DNA of 64,000 bases, taken from the sequence record NZ_CP027239.1. One strand, written 5' to 3'. Each line of letters starts with the position of its first letter. The stretch's first letter is position 1. This document shows, one piece after another, positions 5,278-35,388 of this stretch. Under the pieces are notes generated by a model. That model did not search any database. It had not been told where the DNA came from and worked only from the letters and a program-made list of their open reading frames with translations. This DNA comes from a plasmid. The position numbers and the translations under genes were made by a program.

Positions 5278-5455
5278 CGTTCCTCCTCCAGGGGTGGGGT
5301 TTGCGATGACTCAACTAAACCTCGACCGTTTTCAACTGCAGCAGGTCGCCATTCATCGACGTCAGCCCGCATTTTCTCGGCTCGCGGCGGGGGAGAGGCG
5401 GCCCGGAGAGGCTCCGCTGCTGGCGCCGACTACGGCTGCCTGCACACTGGAGCCC

Positions 5456-6157
5456 ATGACAATCGCGGTACTGCTCGTGCATGGGTTTGGTGGCGACACC
5501 GACACCTGGGACACCATCGCCCCGCAGCTGGGCGACGCCGGCCTGATCGTGGAGCGACTGTCGCTGTCCGGGCACGGCTCCGACGCGGCAGCGCTGGCGA
5601 CTACGCCGTGGACCGCGTGGGTCGAGGACATGCGTTCCGCGGTCGCGCAGCTCCGCGACCGCGCCGACCGGGTGGTGCTGGTCGGCTATTCGCTGGGCGC
5701 CACCACTGGCCTGTTCGCGCTCGCCGAGCACCTGGTCGACGCCGCGGTGTTGATCTCCCCGAGCGTGGACGTCTCACCGGTGCAGCGGGCTGCGGTCGGT
5801 GTCCTGTCGACTCTGCGGGTGCCGACGATCCCGCGAAGCCTCGTGGGCACCCGCGACGATGACACCGAGGACGAGGGCGAACCGTTGCCGGTGGCGGCGT
5901 TGGCGCAGAATCTCGCGTTCAAGGCCGCAGCCCGCGACCTGGAGCTGACTGCGCCGGCTCCGACGCTGCTGGTCGCCGGCGGGGCCGACGAGGTGGTCGG
6001 CCCCGATGCTGCCGGGCGTGTACTGGCGAAGTTCCCGCAGGGCACCCGGCTCATCACGCTCGCTGGGGGAGAGCACGACCTGCCCGGCGGGCCGCTAGCT
6101 AGTCAGGTCGCCGATCTGGTTGGCGAGTTCGTGAGCTCGACTGGCCGGGCGGACTAG
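5456..6157 (+). CDS. alpha/beta-hydrolase-fold protein (esterase/thioesterase-like)
   Basis: 233 aa from ATG 5456. 'LLVHGFGGD' oxyanion-loop start, nucleophile elbow 'GYSLGA', C-terminal 'GGEHDLP' (His). The upstream 134 codons of ORF 5054..6157 are compositional junk. Confidence 0.65.
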   Translation: MTIAVLLVHGFGGDTDTWDTIAPQLGDAGLIVERLSLSGHGSDAAALATTPWTAWVEDMRSAVAQLRDRADRVVLVGYSLGATTGLFALAEHLVDAAVLISPSVDVSPVQRAAVGVLSTLRVPTIPRSLVGTRDDDTEDEGEPLPVAALAQNLAFKAAARDLELTAPAPTLLVAGGADEVVGPDAAGRVLAKFPQGTRLITLAGGEHDLPGGPLASQVADLVGEFVSSTGRAD

Positions 6158-6374
6158 CTTCATCCGTCGGCTGCGGCGTGTACTTGCGGGCCAGCCCCTC
6201 CGGGGTTCCCCAGAACTGCCGGCCGGTCCGGAGGTTTCGCAGGCGTAGTGAGCGATTGCCTGCCCCTGATTCGGCACTGGAGTCCTCTACGACCAGCACT
6301 TCGGCATTGTCCGATTTCCGTTCCCATACCTGGCCTTGAAGGCTCGGCCGAGCGGGCCCTGCGCTCTTGGTCAT
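6099..6374 (-). CDS. small hypothetical protein (third gene of an ATGA-coupled triplet)
   Basis: 91 aa. Start ATG 6374 overlaps the stop of the upstream gene (ATGA at 6371-6374). Overlaps the 3' end of the hydrolase gene on the opposite strand by 58 nt. Confidence 0.4.
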   Translation of the reverse strand: MTKSAGPARPSLQGQVWERKSDNAEVLVVEDSSAESGAGNRSLRLRNLRTGRQFWGTPEGLARKYTPQPTDEASPPGQSSSRTRQPDRRPD

Positions 6375-6652
6375 GACTCACCTTTTCTCGTCGATTGTGC
6401 GCCTGGTCGAGGTCCGGCGCCGGTGGAGTACTGCTGTCCGGCTCGACGGGCGCGGTAGCCGGCCGCGTAGCCGTCTGCCCATGCCGCCGACACCTCGAGC
6501 GGGGCGACCGCGATCAGGCCTTTCTCTTGCAGGTCGCGGGCGGCTTTCTGGGCCATTCGCTCGAGCGGCACGGAGTACGGGTCTGTATCGCGGTGCAGGG
6601 CCCGGTAGATGGCGTCCGCAACCTGCTCGGTTGCGCGGTCCGGGCTCATCAT
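6371..6652 (-). CDS. small hypothetical protein
   Basis: 93 aa from MMSPDRATEQ. ATG 6652 overlaps the upstream stop (ATGA 6649-6652). Non-repetitive, ordinary codon usage. Confidence 0.5.
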   Translation of the reverse strand: MMSPDRATEQVADAIYRALHRDTDPYSVPLERMAQKAARDLQEKGLIAVAPLEVSAAWADGYAAGYRARRAGQQYSTGAGPRPGAQSTRKGES

Positions 6653-7122
6653 TGGTCGGCCTCTCGATACGGGTTGTCTGCCATCGCTTGACGCCGCGTC
6701 GCGCTGCCGATGGTCGGCTCGAGGTGGTAGACGGCCTCTACCCATCCTTCGGCTCGCCCCTCGCGCTTGGTCTCGGCGTGCAGCCGGTCGGCTGTCTCCA
6801 GCCGGGTCCACGAGCCGTCGCGGGTCAGGCGCCACTCGCTGCCGTCGGCTTCGTTGACGAGCCGGTAGTGCTCGGGGTGTCGGGTGGTGACTGCTGCTGA
6901 CACCAGCTCGCCGGCCGGTTCGGCCCTGTTGGCGACGTCGGGGCCGTCTGTCCGATTCGTTCGCTGCTCGTGCGACTCGGGCTTCGGCTGGTGCTCGTCG
7001 AGCCATGTCGCGACCGCGTCGAGGACTGCGCCCATCGCGCCCACGCCGTCTGTGTCCATCGCCTCGAAGTACACGTCGAACATTAACCCCGCGTCGGGCA
7101 GGTCTTCTCTGGTCCAGCTCAT
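6649..7122 (-). CDS. hypothetical protein
   Basis: 157 aa from MSWTREDLPD (ATG 7122). First gene of three translationally coupled genes. No known domain recognised. Confidence 0.5.
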   Translation of the reverse strand: MSWTREDLPDAGLMFDVYFEAMDTDGVGAMGAVLDAVATWLDEHQPKPESHEQRTNRTDGPDVANRAEPAGELVSAAVTTRHPEHYRLVNEADGSEWRLTRDGSWTRLETADRLHAETKREGRAEGWVEAVYHLEPTIGSATRRQAMADNPYREADQ

Positions 7123-7275
7123 GCGCTCATTCTCCCGTTCCAATTCGCTCTCCTCGGGCGGAATGACCGCCCGAGGAGAGCGCGGCCCCGGAGGGACCTC
7201 ATCCGGTACGCGTCCGATCAGCCCAACGCGGTCCCCTCCGGCGTTACCCGGCTGCCCCGGCCACACTCGCTTACA

Positions 7276-7878
7276 TCAGAACGGGGGTTCGTCGTCCTGG
7301 CCGCCGAAGCCTCCGCCCGCGTTGGCACTGGCGGCAGCGCCCCACGGGTCGTCGATCTGGTCAGATCCCTGACCACCTCCGAAGCCGCCACTCTGCTGGC
7401 CGCCGCCGAAGCCTCCCTCGGGCTGACCACCACCGAAGCCGCCCTGGCCACCTCCCTGGGGCTGGCCGCCGCCGAAGCCGCCACCCTGCTGGCCGCCGCC
7501 CTGGTTGCCGCGGCTGGTGCGGGTGACCTTGGCGGTGGCGTACTTGAGGGACGGGCCGACCTCGTCGACCTCGACCTCGTAGACGGTGCGCTTCTCGCCC
7601 TCGCGGGTCTCGTAGGAGCGCTGCCGCAGCCGGCCGTTGACGATGACGCGCATGCCCTTCTGCAGCGACTCGGCGACATTCTCCGCCGCCTGCCGCCAGA
7701 CGTTGCAGGTGAGGAACAGGCCGTCGCCGTCTTCCCACTGGTTCGTCTGGGAGTTGAAGCGGCGCGGGGTGGAGGCGATGCGGAAGTTGGCGACCGCGGC
7801 GCCCGACGGGGTGAACCGCAGTTCCGGGTCGGCGACGATGTTGCCGATGACGGTGATGGGGGTGTCGCCCTGACTCAT
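7276..7878 (-). CDS. ssb: single-stranded DNA-binding protein
   Basis: 200 aa. OB-fold N-terminus ([29 protein letters not shown]...), Gly/Gln-rich linker with GGFGGGQ repeats, canonical acidic tail DDEPPF. RBS AGGAGA upstream. Confidence 0.9.
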
Positions 7879-8031
7879 GGTGTCTCCTAGGTCGTGGGTT
7901 CAGGCGGTGAGCCGGTGTGCCGGTCTCGGGCAGGAGCATCGCACGACGATTTGCCGGTGTGGCGTCTCCGCGACCTGCACGTTGACGGGAATCGCCGGCA
8001 GAGTCTCGCTGGTCAAAGGCAAGGGAAGGGG

Positions 8032-8244
8032 AGGACCATCGCCGCTCGCGTGGGGAGCACGCGGCGCCGGCCTGGAGGATGCGCCGTTGCATGGGACCAT
8101 CACCGCTCGCGTGGGGAGGACCCCCGTACAGTGCGTCGGGCTGGAGCTGGCCCCAGGACCATCCCCGCTCGCGTGGAGAGCACTTGCCTCACCTGATGCA
8201 GACACCAGCTATCTCCGGACCGTCCACGCTCGCGTGGAGAGCAC
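8032..8244 (-). CRISPR. orphan type I-E-like mini-CRISPR array (4 repeats, 3 spacers, no cas genes in window)
   Basis: Four 29-bp repeats at 8032, 8093, 8155, 8216 with 32/33/32-bp unique spacers (period 61-62). Minus-strand repeats GTGCTC[C/T]CCACGCGAGCGG[C/G/T]GATGGTCC closely resemble actinobacterial I-E repeats (GTGCTCCCCGCGCGAGCGGGGATGATCC.). Repeats carry point differences, and the repeat hairpin stem is degenerate. Confidence 0.6.
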
Positions 8245-8402
8245 ACTCGCTACGCTGCGGGTTTTCTCCGTGTACGCGTGGTTGGGGATGGGTTCGGGAT
8301 TGCTCCCGAACGGTGACCACCGCGGTGGCCTTCACGCTTCGCCGGTCCCGCGCCGTTCCCGCCTGATAGCGGTTCGGGCACGGGGCCTCCACGTGCATTA
8401 AC

Positions 8403-8495
8403 GTCCCCACCCTCCGTGGGGACGGCCGCCCTCTCCGGCGGCTACGGCGCGGCCCGGGCCCCGACTATGCGGGCGGATGTGACCACATAGTCGGG
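8403..8495 (-). terminator. cluster of three GC-rich hairpins downstream of the 546-aa gene
   Basis: GTCCCCAC-cctcc-GTGGGGAC (8403-8423); GCCGCC-ctctcc-GGCGGC (8425-8442); CCCGACTATG-17 nt-CATAGTCGGG (8459-8495). No clear U-tract, so function as a terminator is an inference. Confidence 0.3.
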
Positions 8496-8501
8496 TGCCT
8501 G

Positions 8502-10142
8502 TCAGGCGGGAATCTGCTCGGGGTACTCCTTGTAGGCGTCGTGCGCTGCCTTGGTGAACGCCTTGGGGTCGGCCAGACCCGCGCGCACCATGCGCTCGAA
8601 CCGGTCGGCCGGGATCCTGCTCGACAGGTGGGTACCGAAGTTCTTCCGCAGGATCGGGTTCAGCTGATCAAGGTGCTGGGCCATGCCGATGGTCTCGATC
8701 AGCTCGTCCCACAGGCCCTGCAGGTCGTGGCGGTCGGCCAAGGTCTGCCCCTCCGGCACCGCCAGCGCAGAGTTCTCCACGGCGGGAGCAGGGGCCGGTG
8801 CCTGCTCCTGCGCGGGCTCCTGCGGTGCCGACTGCTCGGGCGGCGCCTGCTGTGCCGACTCCTGCTCGGGGACGTTGTGGCCGCCACCGTCGGGGCCGCC
8901 GCTGGAGGGCGCGCCGACGATGTCGGATGCCACTTCCAGGGCCAGCGCGTACAGGTCGCCGGCCGCCGCGGCGACCCGCTTGATCCATTCGGAGCTCTCG
9001 TGTCGATCCTCGACGTACTCGAGGACGAAGGGCTGCTCCGCCAGGGCGACCTGGGCCACCCACTTGGCGGCCTCGCGCCACGACGGCTCGGTCTGGCGCT
9101 GGTAGCCCAGTGCGGTCTGCTGGACCCGGCTCGCGGCCCACATGAGCGGCTTGATCAGCTCGGTCGCCGCGCGGCTCAGGCGCTCATCGCCCAGCTGTGC
9201 CGCCTTCTCCGGGTCGGCGTAGGCGGCGCTCTGCACCAGGTCGAGGGCGTCCTTACGGGCCCAGCGGACGGACTGCACGATGTACGAGGCCGGGTTGAGT
9301 CGACCGTCGAGGTTGACCAGCTCCCACGGCTTGCTTTCGACTGACCGCAGGCGCTGTACGGGCCGGTCAGTGTCGTCGCCCCGCATGATGCTGACGACCT
9401 GCTCGGCGATCTGGCGGGCATCGACTGCGCCGCCGGTCGGTGCGCCGGGCGCGGCTGCGGGGGAGGCGTTGTCGGAGCGGACGATCGCGCCGCCGGTCTC
9501 GCCTGCCTCGGTGAAGATGCGGACCCAACCCTCGGGCGGTGTGGAGCCGTCGCGGTTGTGCCGGAACAGGTCCCACTCTTCGGGGTTGGTGGAGGCTTCC
9601 GCACTGATGACGTTGCGGGAAGGGTCGCCGGCGGGACCCACGACGGCGATCACGTTGGCGCAGTTCTCGCCCGTGATGTTCGAGTTGGCGCCGCTGCCGT
9701 CTGGCGCTGAGCCGCGCAGCACGCACATCGGCACGGTGTACGGGATGACCTCGCCGGACTTGTTCTTGTAGCGGCGGCGGGTCTCGATGGCCACGTAGAC
9801 CGGTTCGCCATGCTCATGAGCCCAATGCAGCGCTCGGTGCACCTCCGAGCTCTCAACGGTGGAACCGGAGAAGTCGTGCCTGAGCTTCTTGTCGCTGCCG
9901 GTCTCCGAGGATGCGGCATCGAACGTCACCGACACCGAGCGCACCCCGCCGCGGCCCTCCCTGTCGGAGACCTTGATCTCCTTGACCAGAACGGACGTGA
10001 ACTCGCGGACGTACACCTCGGGACGCACGGGCCGCTGCGTGACGTCGCCGTCAGCGGTGAGCTTGACCGCGACGGGCTTGGTCGGTGCGCTGGCGTAACC
10101 GATCCAGCTGGTCGGGTGGGTCTGGCGGGTGAAGGTCGTCAT
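8502..10142 (-). CDS. hypothetical protein (546 aa), candidate replication/recombination factor
   Basis: Long ORF, non-repetitive N-terminal 250 aa, Pro/Gln/Ala-rich linker (EQESAQQAPPEQSAPQEPAQEQ). Divergently transcribed from the rusA-dnaB-like pair. No motif I can name. Confidence 0.55.
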   Translation of the reverse strand: MTTFTRQTHPTSWIGYASAPTKPVAVKLTADGDVTQRPVRPEVYVREFTSVLVKEIKVSDREGRGGVRSVSVTFDAASSETGSDKKLRHDFSGSTVESSEVHRALHWAHEHGEPVYVAIETRRRYKNKSGEVIPYTVPMCVLRGSAPDGSGANSNITGENCANVIAVVGPAGDPSRNVISAEASTNPEEWDLFRHNRDGSTPPEGWVRIFTEAGETGGAIVRSDNASPAAAPGAPTGGAVDARQIAEQVVSIMRGDDTDRPVQRLRSVESKPWELVNLDGRLNPASYIVQSVRWARKDALDLVQSAAYADPEKAAQLGDERLSRAATELIKPLMWAASRVQQTALGYQRQTEPSWREAAKWVAQVALAEQPFVLEYVEDRHESSEWIKRVAAAAGDLYALALEVASDIVGAPSSGGPDGGGHNVPEQESAQQAPPEQSAPQEPAQEQAPAPAPAVENSALAVPEGQTLADRHDLQGLWDELIETIGMAQHLDQLNPILRKNFGTHLSSRIPADRFERMVRAGLADPKAFTKAAHDAYKEYPEQIPA

Positions 10143-19504: not shown

Positions 19505-20164
19505 ATGCCTACTGCCTCCGCTGACCAGCCGTCGCTGCTGACCAGCCGCAAAGCCGCGGCCGAGTGGTGGCTCGACACCGCTGGCCGTGCCGCGCTGACC
19601 ATCGCCGACGCCCGGCGCCCCGCCGCTGTGCTGATCGCACCCGACGGTGATGTCGTGGTCGACGGTTCACCGCGGACGGAAAAGCGCCGGCCCCGCAATC
19701 TCAAGGTCCCCCAGAAGTACGTCAAGAGCCTCGCCGGCACCGACGAAGGCACCTGGCGGGCCGCCCACGCTGTGGCCGCGTCCCGCTGGTCCACCCGCCG
19801 CGACTCCATCCCCACCTTCACCATCCTGCTGACCGTGATGGCCCTGAGCATCGCGACCACCACCAGCGCTGGAAGCATCCCCACGATCGCCGGGTGGATC
19901 GCCGCAGCAGCGTGCGCCGCGATCGCAGTGGCCATCGCTGTGCACTCCCGGCGCAGCGCCGTGACCATCGTCCAGACCAGCGACCAGCAGGCCACCCGCA
20001 TTGCCGGCATCGACGCCGCCCGCGCGGTGTTGGGAGACAACGAGGACCAGGAGCTCTACAAGACTGCGTTGCACCAATGGCGAGCAGAGCGTGATCCGAT
20101 GCGGCCACGCAATCGTCTCACCAGGCTCGAGGAGTCGCTCGCCGGCGCCAGCGCGGAGGAGTGA
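19505..20164 (+). CDS. membrane protein, hypothetical
   Basis: RBS GGGAGAG. Two TM helices (FTILLTVMALSIATT / IAGWIAAAACAAIAVAIAV). Confidence 0.45.
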   Translation: MPTASADQPSLLTSRKAAAEWWLDTAGRAALTIADARRPAAVLIAPDGDVVVDGSPRTEKRRPRNLKVPQKYVKSLAGTDEGTWRAAHAVAASRWSTRRDSIPTFTILLTVMALSIATTTSAGSIPTIAGWIAAAACAAIAVAIAVHSRRSAVTIVQTSDQQATRIAGIDAARAVLGDNEDQELYKTALHQWRAERDPMRPRNRLTRLEESLAGASAEE

Positions 20165-20712
20165 TGAGCGCCGGCCGGAATGCTGGGTCGTCCCTGCTGG
20201 ACCGAGTGACCACGGTCAATGAGGACGGTCAGCGGCAGCTGGCACCGTTTGTGATGCCTCTGTTCGTGATCGTCGTGCTCAGTTTCATTCTGCTGTTCAC
20301 CCTGGGCCGGTGCGCTGTCGACACCGTTCACTCCATCACTGAGGAGCCCGAGCAGCGCCCGATGGTGACCCCGTCGTTTGAGCTCCCCGCGCCCCGCGGC
20401 TGCGGCGAAGTCAGTGACACCGTGATGGCCGCTATCGAGCAGGAGCTGCGGGATCCACGCATGCGGGTGGCGCGCGCGTACTCGCACGAGCGTGACGATG
20501 GGGTGCAGGCGATCGGGGTGACGATTCAGCGGGACGATCGCGCGATCCAGGCGGTCGCAGCGATCTTCGCAGCCGACCACACCGGCAAGCTGTTCTCCCT
20601 GTCATCGGATGCGCGGCAGATGTCGCGGTTGCCAGACGGTCGAGAGACGCTGCGGATGACCCCGGTCGACGATGAGGCGCAGATAGTGAACTCGTGCCTG
20701 CGGGACCAGTGA
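20161..20712 (+). CDS. membrane protein, hypothetical
   Basis: ATGA overlap with the upstream gene. TM 'FVMPLFVIVVLSFILLFTL'. Confidence 0.45.
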   Translation: MMSAGRNAGSSLLDRVTTVNEDGQRQLAPFVMPLFVIVVLSFILLFTLGRCAVDTVHSITEEPEQRPMVTPSFELPAPRGCGEVSDTVMAAIEQELRDPRMRVARAYSHERDDGVQAIGVTIQRDDRAIQAVAAIFAADHTGKLFSLSSDARQMSRLPDGRETLRMTPVDDEAQIVNSCLRDQ

Positions 20713-20817
20713 CACACGCGGGCAGCACGCCCGTTCCGTCACCGTGACGTTAGGGCAGGTCAGCGTGGGGACTGGACGTGCTGCCGCTTCTGCTGGGGGC
20801 TCGTCGCCGCTCTCGCA

Positions 20818-21414
20818 CTACTCCAGTTCGGAGGCCGGCACGTCGCTCATCAGCGTGTCGACCGGTTCAACAACCCCGTCAGAGACAGGGTCGGAGTCGG
20901 CAGTGGGGGCTTCGATCTCGCCGCGTCGAGTCAGTACTCGCCAGGCCCGCTGGGCACGGGGCTTAGCTTCTTCTTCTGCCCAGCGGCGCACGCGCGGCCT
21001 GGTCGCAACGGCGGCTCCACCGACGAGGACTAGCGCCGTCACCCCGAGCGCGACCGGGGCCCAGGAGCGGGAGTGCGGCGGCATCTCCGCCTGACCCTCG
21101 AACTCACCCTCGACGTCGATCAGCTCGACAGGTTCGCCACTTGAACCGGCATCGGAGGCGGAAGCTGCGATGTCGGCGTTGAGGGCCTCGGCGATGCTCT
21201 CGTCCCACGTTCGGACGGTCCAGGCGCGGTTGTAAGACTGGTAGCCGCCGGTTCCACGCTCGTAGTAGGTCTCTGAACCGAACTGCTTGCCCTTGTCGGT
21301 CAAGCCGTAGTCGCCGGGCCCTCCGTCCAGGTATCCGTGCTCGAAAAGAAGCGCATTCATCTCGCGCGCCGTCTTTCCCATGCCTCTACCGATGTCCTGA
21401 GCGGATCTTCCCAT
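20818..21414 (-). CDS. hypothetical protein with C-terminal TM segment
   Basis: 198 aa. AT-rich promoter-like DNA upstream. Alternative start at ATG 21381. Confidence 0.45.
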   Translation of the reverse strand: MGRSAQDIGRGMGKTAREMNALLFEHGYLDGGPGDYGLTDKGKQFGSETYYERGTGGYQSYNRAWTVRTWDESIAEALNADIAASASDAGSSGEPVELIDVEGEFEGQAEMPPHSRSWAPVALGVTALVLVGGAAVATRPRVRRWAEEEAKPRAQRAWRVLTRRGEIEAPTADSDPVSDGVVEPVDTLMSDVPASELE

Positions 21415-21627
21415 AAAGAAATAGTACTCGTACGCGATGGGGAGCCCAGCGGTTCACCTCGCGCGAGCGCCCGGCGCGAGTCGGCGGCAGCCACCGACAC
21501 CGCCAGCTACGCTGGAAGCCTGCCAGAATGACGGCACGGCACTGACACCGGACGGGCACGCTGACAATCTTGTCGGCAGCCAGGATGGCACACCGAAGCG
21601 ACGTTGCCGCTGCTAGTCCTGCCCCTT

Positions 21628-21653
21628 TGATGGATAATGTTTATTATCCATCA
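21628..21653. promoter_or_regulatory. perfect palindrome TGATGGATAAT-gttt-ATTATCCATCA
   Basis: 11-bp perfect arms, 4-nt spacer, AT-rich inside roughly 70% GC DNA. Seen directly in the sequence. Operator- or origin-like. Confidence 0.5.
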
Positions 21654-21699
21654 CGCTGCTGACCCTTCCCGAGATGCCGTCGGGCCGCCACCGTGTCGG

Positions 21700-21760
21700 T
21701 TGCCAAACAGTTTGTCAGTTTGCCAAACCGGTGTCAGCAGCGTGCCACGAGTTTGTCAGT
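21700..21760. repeat. iteron-like direct repeats (TGTCAG x3 at about 20-bp spacing; AGTTTGTCAGT x2; TTGCCAAAC x2)
   Basis: TGTCAG at 21713, 21732, 21754. 11-mer AGTTTGTCAGT at 21709 and 21750. TTGCCAAAC at 21700 and 21720. Confidence 0.45.
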
Positions 21761-21970
21761 GGTGGCTGCAAGTCTGGCAAGCAATACGGCGCGGATGTAG
21801 CGTCCCCGATCGAGCTAGCGACCTGTTGAGTTCGACGCAAGAGTCGGATCTGTCTTCCCCTGACCGCGCGATGCCCTCAATCTTCTTGACGAGCCGCCAA
21901 TCCATTCCCTTTTCAGGATCGGTAGACGGATACGCGCCGCGCCTACGGAGAAAGGGCACGGCGGCCCTGG

Positions 21971-22727
21971 CTATTTCTTGACGCCGCTGAGGTTCTTCTT
22001 GATGAGAATCTGGGCTACAAGGTGTCCAGACCCGCCGTTGAGTCCGGCGCCGGGGTGCGTGGAGGCACCGACGTGCCAGACTCGGGGCACGTGCGTCTGG
22101 TGCGAGGCGTGCGGCAGTGGTCGCCATAGGAGGTTCTGGTCCAGCTCCGACGAACCGCTGTACGGGTCGCCCTTGACGGCATTGGGGTTAGCTGCGGCCA
22201 GCTCCGGTGGAGTGATGGTGTCGATTTTGAGGATGGTAGAGGTCAAGCCTGGCGCGTGCTCCTCGAGCCTGTTCAGGACGCGGTCAACATAGGCTGCGGT
22301 CGTTTCTTGTGACCAGGTGCCGTCGACATCGATGGTTCCTCCGGCGTCGCCACGCGGTTGCCAGGGTGCTTCCTGCAGTTGAAGCCAGAGGGCACCTTTG
22401 CCTTCGGGCACACGGTCCGGATCCAGGATCTGCTGGCGGCCGACAACGATTGTCGGTTCGGTGGGAAGGAGGCCGGCGTCAGCTTGCGCGCATGCGATTC
22501 CGGTGCTCGCCGAGCCATCGCTGACGTGAACGAGTGGAACGTCGGAAAGTCGTTCGTCCGCGAACTTCAGGGGCCGGTCCAGGGCGACATGAATTTGGAT
22601 GGCCGCCCGACCGTACCGGTACTGCTGTGCTTCTCGCTGGATTCTCGGTGGGACGTCACTGAGCAGCGTCCCGTACAGTGCTTGCGGTGTGACGCTGGCG
22701 AGTACAGCGTGACGTGCGCTCACTAGC
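21971..22727 (-). pseudogene. CrtI/phytoene-desaturase-family FAD oxidoreductase, C-terminal fragment (disrupted by IS)
   Basis: Frame continues seamlessly across the IS: ...GVVTDKG|LVSARHAVLASVTPQALYGTLL... C-terminus 'GASTHPGAGLNGGSGHLVAQ' is typical of the family. Confidence 0.7.
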
Positions 22728-23809
22728 TGTACTGACCACGGACGTTGTGTCACTGGTCGGCATGGCGGGCTGACATAAGGAAGACCTCCGTGTGAGGTGT
22801 GAAAGCGACAAAGCAACCACACTCACAACGGAGGTCTTCATGTCCCACGGTAACGCCCCGCTGACTCCGACGGGCAGGCTGCGTCTGGCCCGGTGTGTCG
22901 TCGAGGACGGCTGGACCCGTGTCCGTGCTGCCGAGCGGTTCAACGTCTCGGTGGGCACCGTGCGCAAGTGGGTCAACCGGTATCGCGAGTACGGCAAGGA
23001 CGGCATGGTCGATCGCTCCAGCCGGCCCCACCACAGCCCGGGCCGGACACCGCGGCGGCGGGAGCGGCGGGTGATCGGCCTGCGCGTGTCCCGCCGGTGG
23101 GGGCCGGCCCGGATTGCCTACCACCTGGGCATGCAGCCCTCGACCGTGCACAAGATCCTGTCCCGCTACGGCTGTCTGCGCCTGTCGTTCACCGACCCGG
23201 CCACCGGCGCCCCGGTGCGTGCCGGCAAGCGGCAGGTGCGCCGCTACGAGCACGAGGCACCGGGCGATCTGGTGCACGTGGACATCAAGAAGCTCGGCCG
23301 CATCCCCGATGGCGGTGGTCACAAGGTCCTCGGCAGAGCCAAGGGAAAGCGCAACAGCAAGCGTCGAATGGGCTACTGGTACATCCACAACGCTGTCGAT
23401 GACCACTCGAGGCTGGCTTATAGCGAGCTGCTGGAAGATGAGCGCAAGGAGACCGCGGCCGAGTTCTGGAAGCGGGCCGAGGCCTTCTTCGCCGATGCCG
23501 GTATCACCGTGCGCCGGGTCCTGACCGACAACGGCAGCTGCTACCGCTCCCATGCCTTCGCCGACGCCCTCGGAACCGAGGTCACGCACAAGCGCACTCG
23601 CCCGTACCGGCCGCAGACCAACGGCAAAGTCGAGCGCTACAACCGCACGATGCTCGAGGAATGGGCCTACGCCGAACCCTATTCCTGCGAAGCCGACCGC
23701 GCGGCACGTCTACCGGCCTTCCTGCACCACTACAATTTCCACCGCGGCCACACCGCGCTAAGAGGCGCCTCACCCGCAGACCGCGTACACAACCTGCGTG
23801 GACAGTACA
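22728..23809 (+). mobile_element. IS481-family insertion sequence (1082 bp)
   Basis: Ends TGTACTGACCACG / CGTGGACAGTACA (13-bp IR, 1 mismatch). Flanked by a 6-bp direct duplication ACTAGC (22722-22727 and 23810-23815), matching the NCTAGN target preference. Single DDE transposase ORF. Confidence 0.8.
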
Positions 23810-23814
23810 ACTAG
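22840..23814 (+). CDS. IS481-family DDE transposase
   Basis: 324 aa. N-terminal HTH (ARCVVEDGWTRVRAAERFNVSVGTVRKWVNRYRE), DDE core (HVDIKKLG...LTDNGSCYRS...YRPQTNGKVERYNRTM). RBS ACGGAGG. TAG stop lies in the duplicated target CTAG, just outside the IS end. Confidence 0.85.
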   Translation: MSHGNAPLTPTGRLRLARCVVEDGWTRVRAAERFNVSVGTVRKWVNRYREYGKDGMVDRSSRPHHSPGRTPRRRERRVIGLRVSRRWGPARIAYHLGMQPSTVHKILSRYGCLRLSFTDPATGAPVRAGKRQVRRYEHEAPGDLVHVDIKKLGRIPDGGGHKVLGRAKGKRNSKRRMGYWYIHNAVDDHSRLAYSELLEDERKETAAEFWKRAEAFFADAGITVRRVLTDNGSCYRSHAFADALGTEVTHKRTRPYRPQTNGKVERYNRTMLEEWAYAEPYSCEADRAARLPAFLHHYNFHRGHTALRGASPADRVHNLRGQYN

Positions 23815-24642
23815 CCCTTTGTCGGTAACGACTCCGGTAGCCTGCTGGTCGGCCACGGTGATGGATTCAGCAGTTCTGCCGGTCATCACCGTTACTCCGA
23901 GCTCGGCGAACAGGCTCTCGAAGGCGGCCACGAAGTTTCCTGCGCCGCCAGCCACGATGGGCAGACCAAATCCGTGCATCGTGGCGGCGAGGACCGGGAT
24001 CATCATCCCGCCGGAAGCGTTGTCGGGCGACATCCCGGCGTGCAGTAGCCATGGCGCCCAGATTTGGTCCGCTTCGGTACCGTTGAACCGTGCCCTTGTG
24101 AATGACCGCCCGCTGGTCAGTGCGTCGCGGGCGAGCATTTCAACACCGTCGAGTTTCTGCTTGCGCAGTGCATCGAAACCCAGCTTCGCAAGGGTCTTCT
24201 TCGATCGCAGGTCTGACCCGAGGGCCCCGAACACTGTGCCTGAGCGTGCCCCCATCTCATCCAGCATCGCCACGTACGCATCTTGGTCGTGGGCTTCGGC
24301 GAACCCTTCGGCCGTGCGCTGGGGGTCTCGATAAGCGACCGAGGTAAGGTCGCGGGCGACGCTCCCAGTGAGGGCAGCGTCGGTGTTTCGATACTCGAGT
24401 CCGTGCGCATGGAGTTTGTCGCCGATTGCGGCGTAGGCGCCGCCGGAGACGAAAAGCGGATGCCAAGAAGAATAGATGTCATGTTCATATCCGGGCAGCG
24501 TTCGTTCGCCTGAGGCAATGAATCCACCTAGATTCTCATTGCGTTCAATGATCGCTACACGCCAGCCAGCCAAACCGAGCTCGGCGGCCGCGACGAGGCC
24601 ATTTACGCCAGATCCGATCACAACTGCGTCAAAAGGTTCCAT
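23810..24642 (-). pseudogene. CrtI-family FAD oxidoreductase, N-terminal fragment (disrupted by IS)
   Basis: Rossmann 'FDAVVIGSGVNGLVAAAELGLAGWRVAIIERNENLGG' near the N-terminus (ATG 24642; ORF extends to GTG 24663). Confidence 0.7.
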
Positions 24643-25183
24643 GATCTGTGCTCTCGCTTCCACTCGTTCCGCTGGCTCCAGGCTGCGTGTTGCAACCTCG
24701 GGCTGACTCTCCTTGGCGACGTCGGAGCGCCTGTTGAATCAGGCGGGCTGAGCACTCGACATGTGATGGGTACCGTTCAACCGCTCGTGCCCGACGCGTG
24801 TTCGATTGCTGATCGTCAAGTGCAGGAGTTCTGTGTTCAATGATCGGGCACCGGCGGCGTTCCCGCGGTCGATTTCGTGCATCGGGTCGGTCTTCGGCGG
24901 AAAGTGGCCGGAGCGCCGCGGAATTTGGCTGTGACGCGCATCTCCAGGGATCCTAACGTGAGATGCAGCGCACTGGCCTGCGGGTTTAAGAGGAGCCGAG
25001 TTCGGTCAGAAGAAGCTATTCCTGATTATGCAGACGGTGAAACACCGCATAGGAGGAATTGGCCATGGCAAAAGTGCCTACCGCACGCAGTGATCATCGC
25101 TCTCTGGCACCGAGGAACGGCAGTCGCTCGCGGCGTCGCGGTCGCGGACCACTTGGTGGACCGTCCGCTGTGTGCCTGGGTGC

Positions 25184-25501
25184 TCAGTAAGCGGCGCCGA
25201 GCTCAATTAGGAGTACGCCGCCGACAATGAGGATGACGCCGAGCCCCATCAACCAGGTAAGGGGCTCCCTGAACAGGAAACGGCTGATGATCGCCGTCAA
25301 CGCCACCCCAGAGGCGGCCCAAATTCCGTAGGCGACACCGAGAGCCATGCCGGCGGCCAACGCCAACGACAGCATCGTGAACGCCAGTAAGTACCCGACG
25401 GCCACGCCCGCGTACCAGAGCTTTTTGTCCACAGCGATGCGCAGTGAGATAGTGCCGAACACCTCAAATGCGATGGCGGCGATGAGAAAGAGCCAGGTCA
25501 T
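25184..25501 (-). CDS. SMR-family small multidrug-resistance transporter subunit
   Basis: 105 aa, 4 TM, conserved membrane-embedded Glu (IAFEVFGT). ATGA overlap with the upstream SMR paralog, so a heterodimeric pair. Confidence 0.75.
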   Translation of the reverse strand: MTWLFLIAAIAFEVFGTISLRIAVDKKLWYAGVAVGYLLAFTMLSLALAAGMALGVAYGIWAASGVALTAIISRFLFREPLTWLMGLGVILIVGGVLLIELGAAY

Positions 25502-25863
25502 CGGGCCACCTCGCCCTTCTTGTTCTTGTGTCCCATCTGGGCGCCGAGTTCCACACACAGCACTCCACCGATTACGACGACGGTGCCGATACTCATCAGC
25601 GTGGTCAGCGGCTCATTGAAAAACACCATCGACAACAATGCCGTCAACGCGACCCCGGATGCGCCCCAAATACCGTAGGCGACACCAAGGGCCATTCCTG
25701 TGCGCAGTACCAGAGCCAGGAACACGAACGCCCCCACATAGCCGATCACGACGACCGCATAGAGAGCAGGCGCATTAAGCGCGGCCTTCAGTGACAGCGA
25801 TCCCGCGACCTCCAATAGGATCGCGCCGACCAGCAACAGCCACCCCTTCGCTTGTCGGCTCAC
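25498..25863 (-). CDS. SMR-family transporter subunit (paired)
   Basis: 121 aa, 4 TM, 'LLEVAGSLSLK'. GTG start overlapping the TetR stop (GTGA). Confidence 0.75.
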   Translation of the reverse strand: MSRQAKGWLLLVGAILLEVAGSLSLKAALNAPALYAVVVIGYVGAFVFLALVLRTGMALGVAYGIWGASGVALTALLSMVFFNEPLTTLMSIGTVVVIGGVLCVELGAQMGHKNKKGEVAR

Positions 25864-26387
25864 TTTGCCCCACCTTCGTCCAGCAATCTCATCGCAGCCG
25901 AATACACTGCGTCTTCCTCATCCCCGCGAACCGCCTGAATGCCAAGTCCTTTGTTGAACCACGCCCCGTCAGCCAGGAGCCTGGCGGCCCGCAGCGCACC
26001 ACGCTGCCGGGGTGTCCCTGTGATCTCGGTCCCGAACCACGGGTCCATGCGTTGCGTCCACTGGGCTGCCAGCATTTCCCTCAGTCGGACGTCGACCAGC
26101 AGCGCAAGGTCGCTCTGGTCGAACTCTCCCGTCACCGCGTGCTCCACGTAGGCTCGCAATCTTTCGGCTGGGCTGCTGTCCTCTCCTGCCTGCTTGCGCA
26201 GCACTGTCAACCACCGATCTGCGATCCGGTCCACCACCGCCAGCACCAATGCCTCCTTAGTTTCAAAGTGGTGCACTACCCCTGGCTTCGTCAGGCCAGC
26301 CTCGCGCGCAACAGCATCGATCGCGAACGGCTCACCACGGCGCAGCACTTCGATCGCATCATCAAGAATCTCCGGTTTCGTGGCCAT
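25860..26387 (-). CDS. TetR-family transcriptional regulator
   Basis: N-terminal HTH 'ILDDAIEVLRRGEPFAIDAVAREAGLTKPGVVHHFETKEAL'. 175 aa. Confidence 0.8.
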   Translation of the reverse strand: MATKPEILDDAIEVLRRGEPFAIDAVAREAGLTKPGVVHHFETKEALVLAVVDRIADRWLTVLRKQAGEDSSPAERLRAYVEHAVTGEFDQSDLALLVDVRLREMLAAQWTQRMDPWFGTEITGTPRQRGALRAARLLADGAWFNKGLGIQAVRGDEEDAVYSAAMRLLDEGGAK

Positions 26388-26535
26388 GCCACCACCCTAC
26401 CGACCATATGGTAGGTCAGAGAGCTTCGACCGTCGTGGGCTCCAGATAGCCGGGTCGGAGTCGCTGTTGAGGATCGTCCAACGCGACAGCGATCCTCTGC
26501 TCGTGGACAGAAACGCGATCCGACAATGAGCCGAC

Positions 26536-27552
26536 TCAGGTGCCGTTGTGAGTCTCCCCGGCGCGGAGGTTCTCGTGTGGGGTGGCGCCGAACTGGCGGC
26601 GGTAGTCCGCAGAGAATCTCCCGTAGTTGTAGAACCCCCAGCGAGCGGCGACGGCCGTAGCGGTTGTGTCATGTGGGGAGGACTGGATGAGTTCGTGGCG
26701 GGCTCGCTCCAGGCGGACCCGGTGTCGGTATCGCATTGGCGTTGTGCCGACATGGCGGGTGAACCCGTCTTGGAGTGCACGGACGCTCAACGCCACTTCG
26801 CGGGCGAGATCGGAGACGGATGCGTACTCGAGCGGATTCTCCTCCAGTGCCTCGACGGCCGCGCGGATCGGTCGGGGGCCGGTGAAGCCAGATGGCGCAG
26901 CGAGCGCTTCTGTGTAGTTGCTCGGGATGGAATGGATCAGACTGCTGACGGCCATTCGACTGAGGTGGTGTGCAGTTCGCGCGCGCTCCAGGACGCTGGC
27001 CTGTCCAAGTTCCATGCGGAGCAGGGTCATTATCGATTCCAACGCGCGAAAGGTGCCGACTGGGGGGTGGGGGTCGAACCGAATCGGTTTGAGCACTGTC
27101 CGCCCGAGGGTTTGTGCGATCTCGTCATGGACCAGCTGTGGGGCAAACCGCAGGGACGTCGCACTAGTGTCACTGAAGTAGTCGACGGCCGCGTCTTCCC
27201 CCGCAGAGACGACCACGCACTGGTGGCCCTCGGTGGCGATCTCCCGGCCGCCGAGTCGCGAGACAACCTGGCCGGTCGTGGAGATTAAGACGCTGTAGAA
27301 GGGGTTCTCTGGCAGGAGCATGGACGCGGTCGAGATGGAGAAGTTAGCGAACCACAGTCCAGGAAGCTGATGCTCTTGGAACCGGACATCAACGACCCTG
27401 TTCAGCGGCGGTGAGTCGACCCGCGCGTCTGGGTAGACCTGGCTGAGCCGGGTGGACAACTCCGCAGGATCGCTTGTGGTGACTGTCACTTCGGTCGGTG
27501 TGGGGGTGTTGTCGGCCGTCGAGGTCAGATGGGCATTCATGGTGCGCGTCAC
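26536..27552 (-). CDS. AraC-family transcriptional regulator
   Basis: C-terminal double HTH '...VSDLAREVALSVRALQDGFTRHVGTTPMRYRHRVRLERARHELI...AVAARWGFYNYGRFSADYRRQFGATP'. Confidence 0.8.
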   Translation of the reverse strand: MTRTMNAHLTSTADNTPTPTEVTVTTSDPAELSTRLSQVYPDARVDSPPLNRVVDVRFQEHQLPGLWFANFSISTASMLLPENPFYSVLISTTGQVVSRLGGREIATEGHQCVVVSAGEDAAVDYFSDTSATSLRFAPQLVHDEIAQTLGRTVLKPIRFDPHPPVGTFRALESIMTLLRMELGQASVLERARTAHHLSRMAVSSLIHSIPSNYTEALAAPSGFTGPRPIRAAVEALEENPLEYASVSDLAREVALSVRALQDGFTRHVGTTPMRYRHRVRLERARHELIQSSPHDTTATAVAARWGFYNYGRFSADYRRQFGATPHENLRAGETHNGT

Positions 27553-35381: not shown

Positions 35382-35388
35382 CCCTCAT

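What the first reader, a model, noticed from the sequence alone, without database searches (positions are those of the whole stretch)
8032..8244. Orphan type I-E-like mini-CRISPR array inside a mobile element, directly upstream of ssb
The array has four 29-bp repeats separated by 32/33/32-bp unique spacers. Read on the minus strand the repeats are GTGCTC[C/T]CCACGCGAGCGG[C/G/T]GATGGTCC, near-identical to the actinobacterial type I-E consensus. There are no cas genes anywhere in the 64 kb. The array sits between phage/ICE replication genes and is co-oriented with ssb and the ATGA-coupled small genes, as in conjugative leading regions that are expressed early after transfer.

This architecture is what has been described for MGE-borne mini-arrays used in inter-element conflict, and for RNA anti-CRISPR decoys that hijack the host Cas complex. 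The repeats are slightly degenerate and their hairpin stem is imperfect. That fits either a decaying array or a decoy that binds but misdirects Cas6e/Cascade.
Basis: partly seen in the sequence, partly recalled or inferred. Interest (0 to 1): 0.8.

Follow-up and report, generated by a model that had tools for sequence, protein, structure and literature searches.

The report
Cas12n CRISPR array missing its nuclease
The four repeats are a real CRISPR array, but it belongs to a small plasmid-borne type V-N (Cas12n) system whose nuclease gene has been cleanly deleted, leaving the guide-RNA scaffold and an array with a spacer against rival Dietzia plasmids.

Summary
In detail: there are four 29-nt repeats at 8032-8244 with 32/33/32-nt spacers, and none are expected by chance. 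The repeats are 25-27/28 identical to the actinobacterial type I-E repeat.

It is not an orphan I-E array. The 186 nt upstream (8245-8430) is the tracrRNA-coding 3' end of a cas12n gene (type V-N, formerly V-U4). A Dietzia cinnamea sibling element is 99.3% identical up to the junction and carries an intact 500-aa Cas12n exactly there. The window lacks those 1,354 bp. Relatives of this nuclease at 54-88% identity, in at least five genomic contexts, are each followed by the same scaffold and at least one repeat; most carry a short array with a 61-nt period.

The scaffold's anti-repeat and a pseudoknot triplet covary with each array's repeat. This matches the published RdCas12n guide-RNA architecture.

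Spacer 1 matches Dietzia kunjamensis conjugative plasmids (28/28 nt, AAG PAM) at the start of a conjugation-operon gene. A spacer in the sibling also hits Dietzia plasmids with an AAG PAM.

No cas12n or other cas gene is in the 64 kb. Three of the four repeats are mutated in the tract that pairs with the tracrRNA. The locus is most likely an effector-less, decaying remnant; activity in trans is not excluded.

The parts
8245..8430 (-). tracrRNA-coding region, the retained 3' end of a deleted cas12n gene. It still encodes the remnant of the disordered C-terminal tail. It ends in a 14-nt stretch (GCAGCGTAGCGAGT) that weakly resembles the end of an I-E leader.
   Evidence: It is 95.7% identical (178/186) to the region after the RuvC-III codons of the intact cas12n in the D. 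cinnamea sibling L122. It is 93% identical to L110 and about 83-86% to L064. tblastn with Cas12n aa 444-490 hits window 8423-8283 (85% identity, E 5e-18). It folds into four hairpins, and the stems covary across 10 loci. Literature: the Cas12n tracrRNA overlaps the ORF's 3' end (PMC12216341).
8403..8423 (-). tracrRNA stem 1 (GUCCCCAC-GGAGG-GUGGGGAC). The loop GGA (8413-8415) is the predicted pseudoknot partner of repeat positions -4 to -2 (UCC).
   Evidence: The loop triplet and the repeat triplet covary in all 10 loci: GGA:UCC, AGC:GCU, GGU:ACC and GGC:GCC. This matches the RdCas12n pseudoknot, in which -4U..-2C pairs with -168A..-170G next to stem 1 (PMC12216341).
8292..8311 (-). tracrRNA stem 4 (GUUCGGGA-GCAA-UCCCGAAC)
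   Evidence: The single-sequence fold shows it. Distant relatives carry fully compensated variants: CCGCCC/GGGCGG, CCACCC/GGGUGG, CCAGCGG/CCGCUGG and CCGGCGGA/UCCGCCGG.
8284..8291 (-). Anti-repeat CCAUCCCC, immediately 3' of stem 4. It pairs with GGGGAUGG of the repeat (positions -12 to -5).
   Evidence: Cognate duplexes are -10 to -17 kcal/mol, and the pairs covary: CCAU/AUGG, CGUU/AACG and CGUC/GACG. 86% of cells are paired against 69% in shuffles (0/500), and slid controls give 50% or less.
8216..8244 (-). Repeat 1 (tracrRNA-proximal): GTGCTCTCCACGCGAGCGTGGACGGTCC+G
   Evidence: Its last base, G, equals the last base of the AAG PAM of spacer 1's protospacer. Pairing with the anti-repeat is weakened (-5.6 kcal/mol).
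8184..8215 (-). Spacer 1: GAGATAGCTGGTGTCTGCATCAGGTGAGGCAA
   Evidence: The 28 PAM-proximal nt match Dietzia kunjamensis plasmids NZ_CP099715.1 (pDK313-83) and CP155441.1 exactly (E 2e-4). The match lies at the start of an 'SCO6880 family' gene in the conjugation operon and is preceded by AAG.
8155..8183 (-). Repeat 2: GTGCTCTCCACGCGAGCGGGGATGGTCC+T. This is the only copy with an intact anti-repeat pairing tract.
   Evidence: -17.2 kcal/mol, 8/8 pairs.
8122..8154 (-). Spacer 2 (33 nt): GGGGCCAGCTCCAGCCCGACGCACTGTACGGGG
   Evidence: No credible match in phages, plasmids, the window or the fetched loci.
8093..8121 (-). Repeat 3: GTCCTCCCCACGCGAGCGGTGATGGTCC+C
   Evidence: 7/8 pairs.
8061..8092 (-). 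Spacer 3: ATGCAACGGCGCATCCTCCAGGCCGGCGCCGC
   Evidence: No credible match.
8032..8060 (-). Repeat 4 (distal): GTGCTCCCCACGCGAGCGGCGATGGTCC+T
   Evidence: 7/8 pairs.
8430..8431 (.). Deletion junction. The 1,354 bp that hold cas12n in the sibling element (L122 7969-9322) are missing here.
   Evidence: blastn: L122 1-7968 matches window 16398-8431 at 99.27%, and L122 9323-11344 matches window 8430-6414. The junction sequences show only 1-6 nt of microhomology around GCCGCC. The same boundaries are seen against L110.
8431..8501 (-). Intergenic stretch after the 546-aa gene, with a 13-bp-stem hairpin (8460-8495). It is also present upstream of cas12n in the intact relatives.
7276..7878 (-). ssb, the downstream neighbour of the array, as in relatives L064, L110, L113 and L122
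   Evidence: Pfam SSB, E 3e-30.
8502..10142 (-). 546-aa gene of unknown function. It is the upstream neighbour, and in relatives it is followed by cas12n.

Best explanation
Positions 8032-8430 on the minus strand are what remains of a type V-N (Cas12n, formerly V-U4/C2c9) CRISPR-Cas locus. The locus sits on a Dietzia conjugative element. What survives is the complete tracrRNA-coding region (8245-8430) followed directly by a 4-repeat, 3-spacer array (8032-8244). The cas12n ORF was removed by a 1,354-bp deletion whose junction is at 8430/8431.

How the intact relatives work. Shown here or in the literature: a roughly 500-aa Cas12n with an intact RuvC D/E/D triad is encoded immediately upstream. 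Its 3' end and disordered-tail codons double as a tracrRNA of about 170-190 nt. Inferred from covariation and from the RdCas12n structure: the tracrRNA pairs with the 3' part of each repeat through an 8-nt anti-repeat, and its stem-1 loop pairs with repeat positions -4 to -2. Shown by two protospacers: the spacer guides the complex to DNA flanked by 5'-AAG, and the targets are rival Dietzia plasmids.

The repeats are I-E-like (29 nt, 32-nt spacers, PAM-derived last base). V-N loci have no cas1 or cas2 and presumably obtain spacers from a type I-E Cas1-Cas2 acting in trans. This step is inferred.

In the window itself there is no effector. I judge it about 60% likely that the array is an inert, decaying relic. 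The remainder is mainly use in trans by a Cas12n encoded elsewhere.
For: 1. Homology of the 'leader' to the cas12n 3' end. Canonical I-E arrays lack this sequence.

2. The sibling D. cinnamea element L122/L123 is 99.27% identical over 7,968 nt up to the junction. It carries cas12n (P0157, 500 aa) exactly where the window has the junction.

3. The protein family is Cas12n. P0001 against PDB 9J09 (RdCas12n) gives E 3e-88 (identity of 9J09 from PMC12216341). It is 56% identical to a 505-aa Actinomadura craniellae protein, and AcCas12n is 506 aa. It also carries the FHDVK motif of the AcCas12n-like, AAG-preferring clade.

4. Every relative fetched (54-88% identical, at least 5 genomic contexts) has the scaffold directly followed by at least one such repeat. 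Most carry arrays with a 61-nt period. Homology between contexts stops at the first repeat.

5. The anti-repeat and pseudoknot covary with the repeat, and stems 2-4 covary.

6. Spacer 1 matches Dietzia plasmids 28/28 with an AAG PAM. The sibling's spacer 3 matches Dietzia plasmids 31/32 with an AAG PAM. In both cases the last base of the preceding repeat is G.

7. For relic status: no cas12n in the 64 kb. The GGGG tract that pairs with the anti-repeat is intact in 17/17 repeats of close cas12n+ relatives but in only 1/4 here (hypergeometric 4/1330 = 0.003, calculated by hand).
Against: Only 64 kb of the host was searched, so a Cas12n or an I-E system may be encoded elsewhere.

The tracrRNA region is fully intact. 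It is 93-96% identical to cas12n+ relatives, while 4-fold sites of the flanking genes are only 58-70% identical to L110. That argues either for a recent deletion or for continued selection.

The cas12n-less version occurs with an identical array in at least 8 contigs from at least 6 samples. A cas12n+ locus with a near-identical tracrRNA occurs in the same metagenome as one of them.

The cas12n+ sibling L122 also has four non-identical repeats, so repeat heterogeneity alone does not prove decay.

No expression data exist, and no promoter was predicted. Adaptation by I-E Cas1-Cas2 is inferred, not shown. In the Dietzia clade the motif before the first repeat resembles the I-E leader end only weakly (8/14).
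Confidence: 0.8

Rival explanations
1. The tracrRNA and array form a trans-acting guide module. They are still transcribed and are used by a Cas12n encoded on another replicon or in the chromosome of the same cell. This is analogous to standalone omega-RNAs that work in trans with TnpB. Under this reading the element keeps targeting rival plasmids without paying for the nuclease.
For: The tracrRNA is intact and far more conserved than neutral sites in the flanking genes. Spacer 1 still matches extant Dietzia plasmids perfectly over the 20-28 nt that Cas12n uses. Repeat 2 has perfect tracrRNA pairing. The deletion variant persists in many samples. A cas12n+ locus with a 96%-identical tracrRNA is present in the same metagenome. 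Standalone omega-RNAs function in trans (PMC10691335).
Against: No cas12n is in the window. Repeat 1, which precedes the one spacer with a known target, has the worst tracrRNA pairing (-5.6 kcal/mol). Three of the four repeats are mutated in the pairing tract, which is invariant in cas12n+ relatives. Co-occurrence in a metagenome is not co-occurrence in one cell. The deletion probably removed any internal tracrRNA promoter.
Confidence: 0.22
2. This is the first reader's proposal: an orphan type I-E mini-array. The host's I-E Cas6e and Cascade process and use these crRNAs, so the element hijacks the host system against competitors.
For: The repeats are 25-27/28 identical to the canonical I-E repeat, with 29/32 architecture. 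The PAM is AAG and the last repeat base is PAM-derived. The related repeat family sits next to cas2e.
Against: The upstream flank is a cas12n remnant, not an I-E leader. All four repeats carry an A.C mismatch in the Cas6e stem, and three have a second disruption (and my reading of the sequence). In relatives such as L107 the I-E hairpin is lost altogether, while the 3' part that pairs with the tracrRNA is kept. So the constraint falls on tracrRNA pairing, not on the Cas6e stem. Among the 97 stretches returned by the GTDB species-representative scan, no multi-repeat array with this repeat core came from Dietzia other than the V-N mini-array itself. That pattern was narrow, so this point is inconclusive.
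Confidence: 0.1
3. The module is an RNA decoy or anti-CRISPR (Racr-like). The effector-less tracrRNA and degenerate repeats sequester or reprogram the Cas12n (or Cas6e/Cascade) of a rival element or of the host.
For: It is effector-less and borne on a mobile element. The repeats are degenerate. The tracrRNA is conserved. Sibling elements carrying cas12n circulate in the same species.
Against: The spacers are of normal length, and one has a true protospacer with the correct PAM. The structure is fully explained by a simple deletion of cas12n from a canonical locus. No dedicated promoter was found. No solitary repeat units occur elsewhere in the window.
Confidence: 0.05
4. This is a TnpB/IS607-family transposon end (omega-RNA) that happened to land beside a pre-existing I-E array. 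There is no functional link between scaffold and array.
For: NCBI annotates the relatives as TnpB or IS607-family TnpB. NCBIfam guided_TnpB passes its cut-off. The 14 nt before the first repeat resemble the I-E leader end in distant relatives. That is compatible with an ancient insertion into a leader.
Against: The association holds in every relative and in at least 5 different contexts. The scaffold's anti-repeat and pseudoknot covary with the repeat. No TnpA was seen next to any copy. The closest solved structure is a Cas12n that uses crRNA plus tracrRNA.
Confidence: 0.03

Closest known systems
Type V-N (V-U4, C2c9) CRISPR-Cas12n loci: AcCas12n (Actinomadura craniellae), RdCas12n (Rothia dentocariosa; PDB 9J09/9UDI)
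   Same: The relatives' effector is a close homologue (E 3e-88 to RdCas12n; 56% identity to the A. craniellae protein). The tracrRNA overlaps the ORF's 3' end and disordered tail. The pseudoknot lies between repeat positions -4 to -2 and the stem-1 loop. The PAM is AAG. The locus has no cas1/cas2. The host range is actinobacterial.
   Different: The window has lost the effector gene. These Dietzia loci sit on conjugative elements next to ssb, and their identified targets are other Dietzia plasmids. NCBI annotates the proteins as TnpB or transposase.
Type I-E CRISPR arrays of Actinomycetota (repeat GTGCTCCCCGCGCGAGCGGGGATGGTCC)
   Same: The repeat is 29 nt and the spacers 32-33 nt. The repeats are 25-27/28 identical. 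The PAM is AAG, and its last base becomes the last base of the repeat.
   Different: There are no I-E cas genes. The leader is replaced by a cas12n tracrRNA region. The Cas6e stem carries mismatches in every copy.
Standalone omega-RNAs of OMEGA/TnpB systems (PMC10691335)
   Same: It is a guide-RNA scaffold without an adjacent effector, which could in principle act in trans with a compatible nuclease.
   Different: Here the scaffold is a tracrRNA followed by a CRISPR array, not a transposon end with a single flanking guide. It arose by deletion rather than by mobilisation.
Effector-bearing but adaptation-less CRISPR systems carried on mobile elements that acquire spacers in trans and target rival plasmids (type IV-A3: bioRxiv 10.1101/2023.06.23.546257; C2c9/C2c10 sharing PAMs with co-occurring type I systems: 10.1101/2024.04.09.587696)
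   Same: The system is plasmid-borne and lacks cas1/cas2. Its repeats and PAM match those of a type I system. Its spacers are directed against competing plasmids.
   Different: The effector class is different. Acquisition in trans is inferred here, not demonstrated.
TranC transposon-CRISPR intermediates (LaTranC, PDB 9JFO)
   Same: It is a TnpB-sized nuclease whose omega-RNA-like scaffold is split into a tracrRNA and the crRNAs of an adjacent short array.
   Different: The relationship is only distant (E 6e-12 over about 80 aa). TranC repeats are 32-38 nt, not the I-E-like 29 nt.
Mini-arrays, solitary repeat units and RNA anti-CRISPRs (Racr) on mobile elements. This comparison rests on my own knowledge, not on a paper read here.
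   Same: It is a short array on a mobile element with no cas genes nearby.
   Different: It has an identifiable tracrRNA and a traceable deleted effector. The spacers are real and carry the right PAM.

Membership tests
Type V-N (Cas12n) CRISPR-Cas locus | A Cas12n effector gene immediately upstream of the array | tested here: not met
   The window holds only a 47-codon remnant of the C-terminal tail (8423-8283). The feature is met in the sibling L122/L123 (99.3% identical backbone) and in L064, L105, L107, L110, L111, L113, L114, L117 and L118. The window is therefore a deletion derivative of a member, not a complete member.
Type V-N (Cas12n) CRISPR-Cas locus | The effector of the lineage is homologous to characterised Cas12n | tested here: met
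   P0001 against PDB 9J09 (RdCas12n): E 3e-88 over aa 6-438. It is 56% identical to the A. craniellae 505-aa protein. The RuvC D/E/D motifs are present.
Type V-N (Cas12n) CRISPR-Cas locus | A tracrRNA region overlapping the 3' end of the ORF (disordered tail), directly upstream of the array | tested here: met
   Window 8245-8430 matches the sibling's post-RuvC-III region at 178/186. The defining statement is in PMC12216341.
Type V-N (Cas12n) CRISPR-Cas locus | tracrRNA:crRNA pairing, meaning an anti-repeat duplex plus a pseudoknot between repeat positions -4 to -2 and the stem-1 loop | tested here: met
   the pseudoknot is 100% paired with 4 different triplet pairs, and overall 86% of cells are paired against 69% in shuffles (0/500). 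Caveat: the structure was read from these same sequences, and only about 4 lineages are independent. In the window, 3 of the 4 repeats have a weakened duplex.
Type V-N (Cas12n) CRISPR-Cas locus | A 5'-AAN PAM (AAG for the AcCas12n-like clade) | tested here: met
   AAG lies 5' of the spacer-1 protospacer and of the sibling's spacer-3 protospacer. This rests on two protospacers only.
Type V-N (Cas12n) CRISPR-Cas locus | crRNA and tracrRNA are expressed and DNA is cleaved | not testable with these tools
   This needs RNA-seq and interference or cleavage assays.
Type I-E CRISPR array | 29-nt repeat and 32-33-nt spacers with the I-E repeat sequence | tested here: met
Type I-E CRISPR array | An intact Cas6e hairpin (6-7 G-C pairs and a tetraloop) | tested here: not met
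   Reading the repeats: an A.C mismatch occurs at stem pair 5 in all four copies, and three copies have a second mismatch or wobble. Only repeat 1 forms a perfect 6-bp stem, and only in a shifted register.
Type I-E CRISPR array | An I-E leader and linkage to I-E cas genes | tested here: not met
   There is no blastn similarity between 8245-8520 and the flanks of 97 stretches of DNA that carry canonical-type repeats. Only 8/14 identity to the conserved leader end GCAGGTCAAGAAGT was found. No cas genes are in the window. The rest of the host genome was not testable.
RNA anti-CRISPR (Racr) / solitary repeat unit | Repeat mimic(s) without functional spacers that act as a decoy for Cas proteins | tested here: not met
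   The spacers are of normal length, and one has a genuine protospacer with a PAM. No solitary copies were found. Decoy activity itself is not testable here.
IS200/IS605/IS607 TnpB-omegaRNA transposon | An omega-RNA ending at the transposon end with a single flanking guide, an associated TnpA, or multiple mobile copies | tested here: not met
   The scaffold is always followed by CRISPR repeats. No Y1 or serine recombinase lies next to any copy. The score against the IS607_TnpB model is below its cut-off (295 against 350).

The most novel reading that the evidence does not exclude
Effector-less tracrRNA-plus-array modules are not junk. Conjugative plasmids may maintain them as 'free-riding' guide cassettes that arm, or reprogram, a Cas12n supplied by a co-resident element or by the recipient cell. 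Sibling plasmids would then compete by capturing each other's nuclease. The tracrRNA's strong conservation, the persistence of the deletion variant across samples, and its co-occurrence with a cas12n+ locus in one metagenome are all compatible with this reading.
Probability: 0.15. Interest if true: 0.7.

Novelty: new member of a known kind. Interest (0 to 1): 0.4.

Why it matters
The result reclassifies what looks like an orphan I-E array as the guide module of a Cas12n system. A whole actinobacterial clade annotated as 'TnpB/transposase' turns out to consist of V-N CRISPR loci with I-E-style arrays.

It also gives a rare view of the natural biology of Cas12n, which is otherwise studied as an editing tool. 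The loci are carried on Dietzia conjugative elements beside ssb. Spacers with AAG PAMs hit rival Dietzia plasmids, one at the start of a conjugation-operon gene. Within one species, cas12n+ and cas12n- versions of the same backbone coexist.

The covariation data extend the tracrRNA-crRNA pseudoknot and anti-repeat architecture from the one solved structure to several lineages.

For annotation practice: mini-arrays on mobile elements should be checked for an upstream tracrRNA or effector remnant before they are called orphan or decoy arrays.

Tried and rejected
1. Rfam, at the gathering threshold and at E<=10, gave no CRISPR-DR or other family.

2. Megablast of 5-12 kb against phages and plasmids matched only ssb-level similarity.

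3. Near-identical contigs fetched through the 546-aa protein were too close (99.4-100%) to say anything about conservation of the array.

4. The tracrRNA DNA was searched against phages, plasmids and viral contigs with no result. The one metagenome scan, with a 22-mer, found only two contigs from the two JGI metagenomes already sampled. One is the window-type contig and one is a new cas12n+ locus.

5. I tried to confirm I-E typing of the large Gordonia, Saccharothrix and Tsukamurella arrays by finding cas genes within the 8-kb loci. None were found. This was resolved instead through a Streptomyces plasmid where cas2e abuts the array.

6. Spacers 2 and 3 of the window, and 7 spacers of relatives, gave no credible hits in phages or plasmids.

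7. The sigma-70 promoter and intrinsic terminator scans found nothing.

8. The Cas12n Mol Cell 2023 paper is not in the library. A literature search for Dietzia I-E systems returned nothing.

9. A protein-coding repeat was rejected. There is no GC3 signal, and the repeats sit in a non-coding interval conserved as RNA structure.

10. I first took repeat heterogeneity as evidence of decay. I dropped that argument because the cas12n+ sibling also has four non-identical repeats. Only the tract-specific argument (GGGG) is kept.
Full report
**Observation.** The window contains four 29-nt direct repeats at 8032-8060, 8093-8121, 8155-8183 and 8216-8244. They are spaced 61/62/61 nt apart. A degenerate repeat pattern allowing up to 3 mismatches matches only there, with none in 100 shuffles. 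A looser scan allowing up to 7 substitutions finds no extra copies. No ORF across 7899-8502 has the GC3 signature of coding DNA. Rfam has no match. On the minus strand the repeats are 25-27/28 identical to GTGCTCCCCGCGCGAGCGGGGATGGTCC. A scan of 185,579 species-representative genomes shows that sequence forming arrays of 20-100 repeats in Gordonia, Tsukamurella, Saccharothrix, Amycolatopsis and Actinosynnema. A repeat 96.6% identical to it abuts cas2e on a Streptomyces plasmid.

**Context.** The window comes from Dietzia. Its proteins are identical to D. cinnamea / 'MULTISPECIES Dietzia' entries, and the longest contig carrying them is 227.6 kb. The element is conjugative. It encodes a VirB4/TcpF-like ATPase, a TcpC-like protein, a TraD-like coupling protein, a 1,045-aa M23/transglycosylase/NlpC-P60 hydrolase and an FtsK/TraB-like translocase. 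It also carries DUF932, SSB, DnaB, RusA-like and YqaJ-exonuclease genes. About 50 ORFs were scanned and none is a cas gene (those calls).

**The turning point.** The genome scan returned one other 4-repeat mini-array with the same G-to-A repeat variant. It is in Dietzia sp. 179-F (L064) and also lies directly upstream of an ssb. Immediately upstream of that array is a gene with HTH_OrfB_IS605, OrfB_IS605 and Cas12f1-like_TNB domains. Alignment showed that the window's presumed 'leader' (8245-8430) is homologous to the 3' end and downstream region of that gene. The spacers are unrelated. The flanks of the 97 stretches of DNA carrying canonical-type repeats show no similarity to it.

**Identity of the gene.** The L064 protein (P0001) has as its best solved relative PDB 9J09 (E 3e-88). 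That structure is Rothia dentocariosa Cas12n, the type V-N (formerly V-U4) effector (PMC12216341). P0001 is 56% identical to a 505-aa Actinomadura craniellae protein, and AcCas12n is listed as 506 aa (PMC11641405). It has the RuvC D/E/D motifs and the FHDVK motif typical of the AAG-preferring AcCas12n-like clade. [quoted passage not shown] This is exactly the geometry seen here.

**The association is general.** I fetched contigs for relatives at 74-88% identity (L105, L107-L113, L122-L125) and at 54-59% identity (L114-L118). They cover at least five different gene neighbourhoods. In every case the conserved scaffold of about 190 nt is followed immediately by at least one repeat. Where more than one is visible, the repeats are 29 nt with a 61-nt period: 1 to about 7 repeats, with different spacers and lineage-specific repeat sequences. 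Between different contexts, homology runs from about 30 nt before the start codon to the end of the first repeat, and no further.

**RNA architecture.** The window scaffold folds into four hairpins. Stems 2-4 show compensatory changes across 10 loci. Two tertiary or trans contacts predicted from the RdCas12n structure are supported by covariation.

- The 8 nt directly after stem 4 (CCAUCCCC, window 8291-8284) pair with GGGGAUGG of the repeat. Other lineages carry CGUUCC:GGAACG, CGUUCCC:GGGAACG and CGUCCC:GGGACG.
- The first three bases of the stem-1 loop pair with repeat positions -4 to -2: GGA:UCC, AGC:GCU, GGU:ACC and GGC:GCC.

On an anchored alignment, 86.4% of cells pair against 68.8% in shuffles (0/500). 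The covariation score is 0.484 against 0.191 (0/500), and slid registers give 50% or less. The published pseudoknot (-4U..-2C with -168A..-170G, extending stem 1) has the same position and the same end bases. There are caveats. I derived the structure from these sequences, and only about four lineages are independent.

**The deletion.** A D. cinnamea sibling element (L122; L123 = GCA_025152065.1) is 99.27% identical to the window over 7,968 nt, up to window position 8431. It then carries 1,354 bp that the window lacks: cas12n from 32 nt upstream of its ATG through the RuvC-III codons. It resumes at window 8430. tblastn finds only the 47-codon tail remnant in the window. The junction shows at most a few bases of microhomology. 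Downstream of the junction, identity drops to about 94%, and all three spacers differ from the sibling's. The junction therefore coincides with a recombination boundary. The cas12n-less form, with an identical 623-nt intergenic region, occurs in at least 8 contigs from several samples.

**Targets and PAM.**

- Spacer 1, next to the tracrRNA, matches D. kunjamensis plasmids pDK313-83 and CP155441.1 over its 28 PAM-proximal nt with no mismatch (E 2e-4). The site is the start of an 'SCO6880 family' gene inside the plasmid's conjugation operon, and it is preceded by AAG.
- The sibling's spacer 3 matches Dietzia plasmids pI and CP155440.1 at 31/32 (E 5e-5), again after AAG.
- In both cases the last base of the preceding repeat is G. 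This is the I-E signature of a PAM-derived final repeat base.
- AAG is both the I-E PAM and the preferred AcCas12n PAM.
- A preprint reports that C2c9 (= Cas12n) systems share PAMs with co-occurring type I systems (10.1101/2024.04.09.587696).
- The 14 nt before the first repeat in V-N loci resemble the conserved leader end of canonical actinobacterial I-E arrays (GCAGGTCAAGAAGT). The match is 10-11/14 in L111 and L114-L118, but only 8/14 in the window.

I therefore infer, but have not shown, that V-N arrays are filled by I-E Cas1-Cas2 in trans.

**Functional state of the window copy.**

For a relic:
- There is no effector in the 64 kb.
- The GGGG tract that pairs with the anti-repeat is intact in 17/17 repeats of close cas12n+ relatives but in only 1/4 here. 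The hypergeometric probability is 0.003, calculated by hand.
- Repeat 1, which precedes the only spacer with a known target, pairs worst.
- No promoter was found.

Against a relic:
- The tracrRNA is structurally intact. It is 93-96% identical to cas12n+ relatives, while 4-fold sites in the flanking genes are 58-70% identical to L110.
- A cas12n+ locus with a near-identical tracrRNA is present in the same metagenome as a cas12n-less contig.

I put about 60% on inert and decaying, about 20-25% on use in trans by a Cas12n encoded elsewhere, about 10% on use by a host I-E system, and about 5% on a decoy.

**Verdict.** The finding is a real CRISPR array that was assigned to the wrong class. It is the effector-less remnant of a known kind of system (type V-N) on a Dietzia conjugative element. 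Its natural-history details are informative, but it is not a new mechanism.

Noticed in passing
L064 (Dietzia sp. 179-F) first spacer; matches window 8229-8259: The first spacer of the L064 V-N array (ACGCAGCGTAGGGAGTGCGCTCCCCACGCGAG) is a copy of the tracrRNA-end/first-repeat junction of V-N loci. It matches L110 at 29/31 and the window at 28/31. Its own locus differs by a 2-nt indel (the spacer carries an extra GA). In the targets it is preceded by AAC. It looks like a spacer acquired from a rival, or its own, Cas12n locus: CRISPR targeting CRISPR.
   Followed up: partly
window 8430/8431 and flanks (16398-8431 versus 8430-6414): Identity to the cas12n+ sibling L122 drops from 99.27% upstream of the deletion junction to about 94% downstream (97.4% further on). 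All spacers differ. The deletion junction therefore coincides with a recombination boundary between two diverged versions of the element.
   Followed up: partly
14 nt before the first repeat: window 8245-8258; L111, L114, L116, L117, L118: Canonical actinobacterial I-E arrays share the leader end GCAGGTCAAGAAGT. V-N loci have a related sequence at the 3' end of the tracrRNA region (10-11/14 in L111, L114, L116, L117 and L118; 8/14 in the window). This suggests that V-N arrays retain an I-E leader-repeat junction, either for integration in trans or as a trace of a TnpB insertion into an I-E leader.
   Followed up: partly
L107 (Dietzia cercidiphylli) 7506-7778: The five repeats of this cas12n+ locus (GTGCGCCCCGCGCACGCACGGATGGTCC) have lost the I-E Cas6e stem and instead form the palindrome GTGCGC-CCC-GCGCAC. 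They keep the 3' GGATGGTCC that pairs with the tracrRNA. The anti-repeat changed with them (CCAUCCAU).
   Followed up: partly
window about 20000-36800: This block has lower G+C (61-65% against 67-70%). It carries an IS481-family transposase (22792-23814), an AraC regulator, FAD oxidoreductases, an AMP-ligase and a phosphotriesterase-family gene, and it ends at a tyrosine integrase (35685-36743). It looks like an insertion into the conjugative element. The contig of GCA_025147785.1 breaks at window position 19426.
   Followed up: no
window 5321-7276: Among otherwise 99%-identical elements (L002-L004), the segment between DUF932 and ssb is replaced by different small genes, and ssb length varies (152/192/200 aa). 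It is a variable cargo slot right next to the CRISPR remnant.
   Followed up: no
window 7879-8031: The 153 nt between the last repeat and the ssb start codon are about 95% identical to L122. They contain blocks conserved as far as L064, L110 and L113 (CCACACCGGCAA, TGCGATGCTC, CGAGACCG, CTCACCGCC). This may be the ssb promoter or a regulatory region. No sigma-70-type promoter was predicted.
   Followed up: no
L122 9538-9572: The first spacer of the cas12n+ sibling's array is 35 nt (64-nt period) instead of 32-33 nt.
   Followed up: no
window 7369-7511: There are imperfect tandem repeats of 27/30/15 nt inside the 3' part of ssb. They encode the Gly/Pro-rich linker of SSB.
   Followed up: no
L036, L043, L061, L072, L077, L085 (Gordonia, Saccharothrix, Tsukamurella, Actinosynnema arrays): For six loci with canonical repeats, most of them next to arrays of 19-58 repeats, no cas gene lies within the 8 kb fetched. 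In two of them (L061, L085) a sigma-70-family gene lies upstream of the leader.
   Followed up: partly
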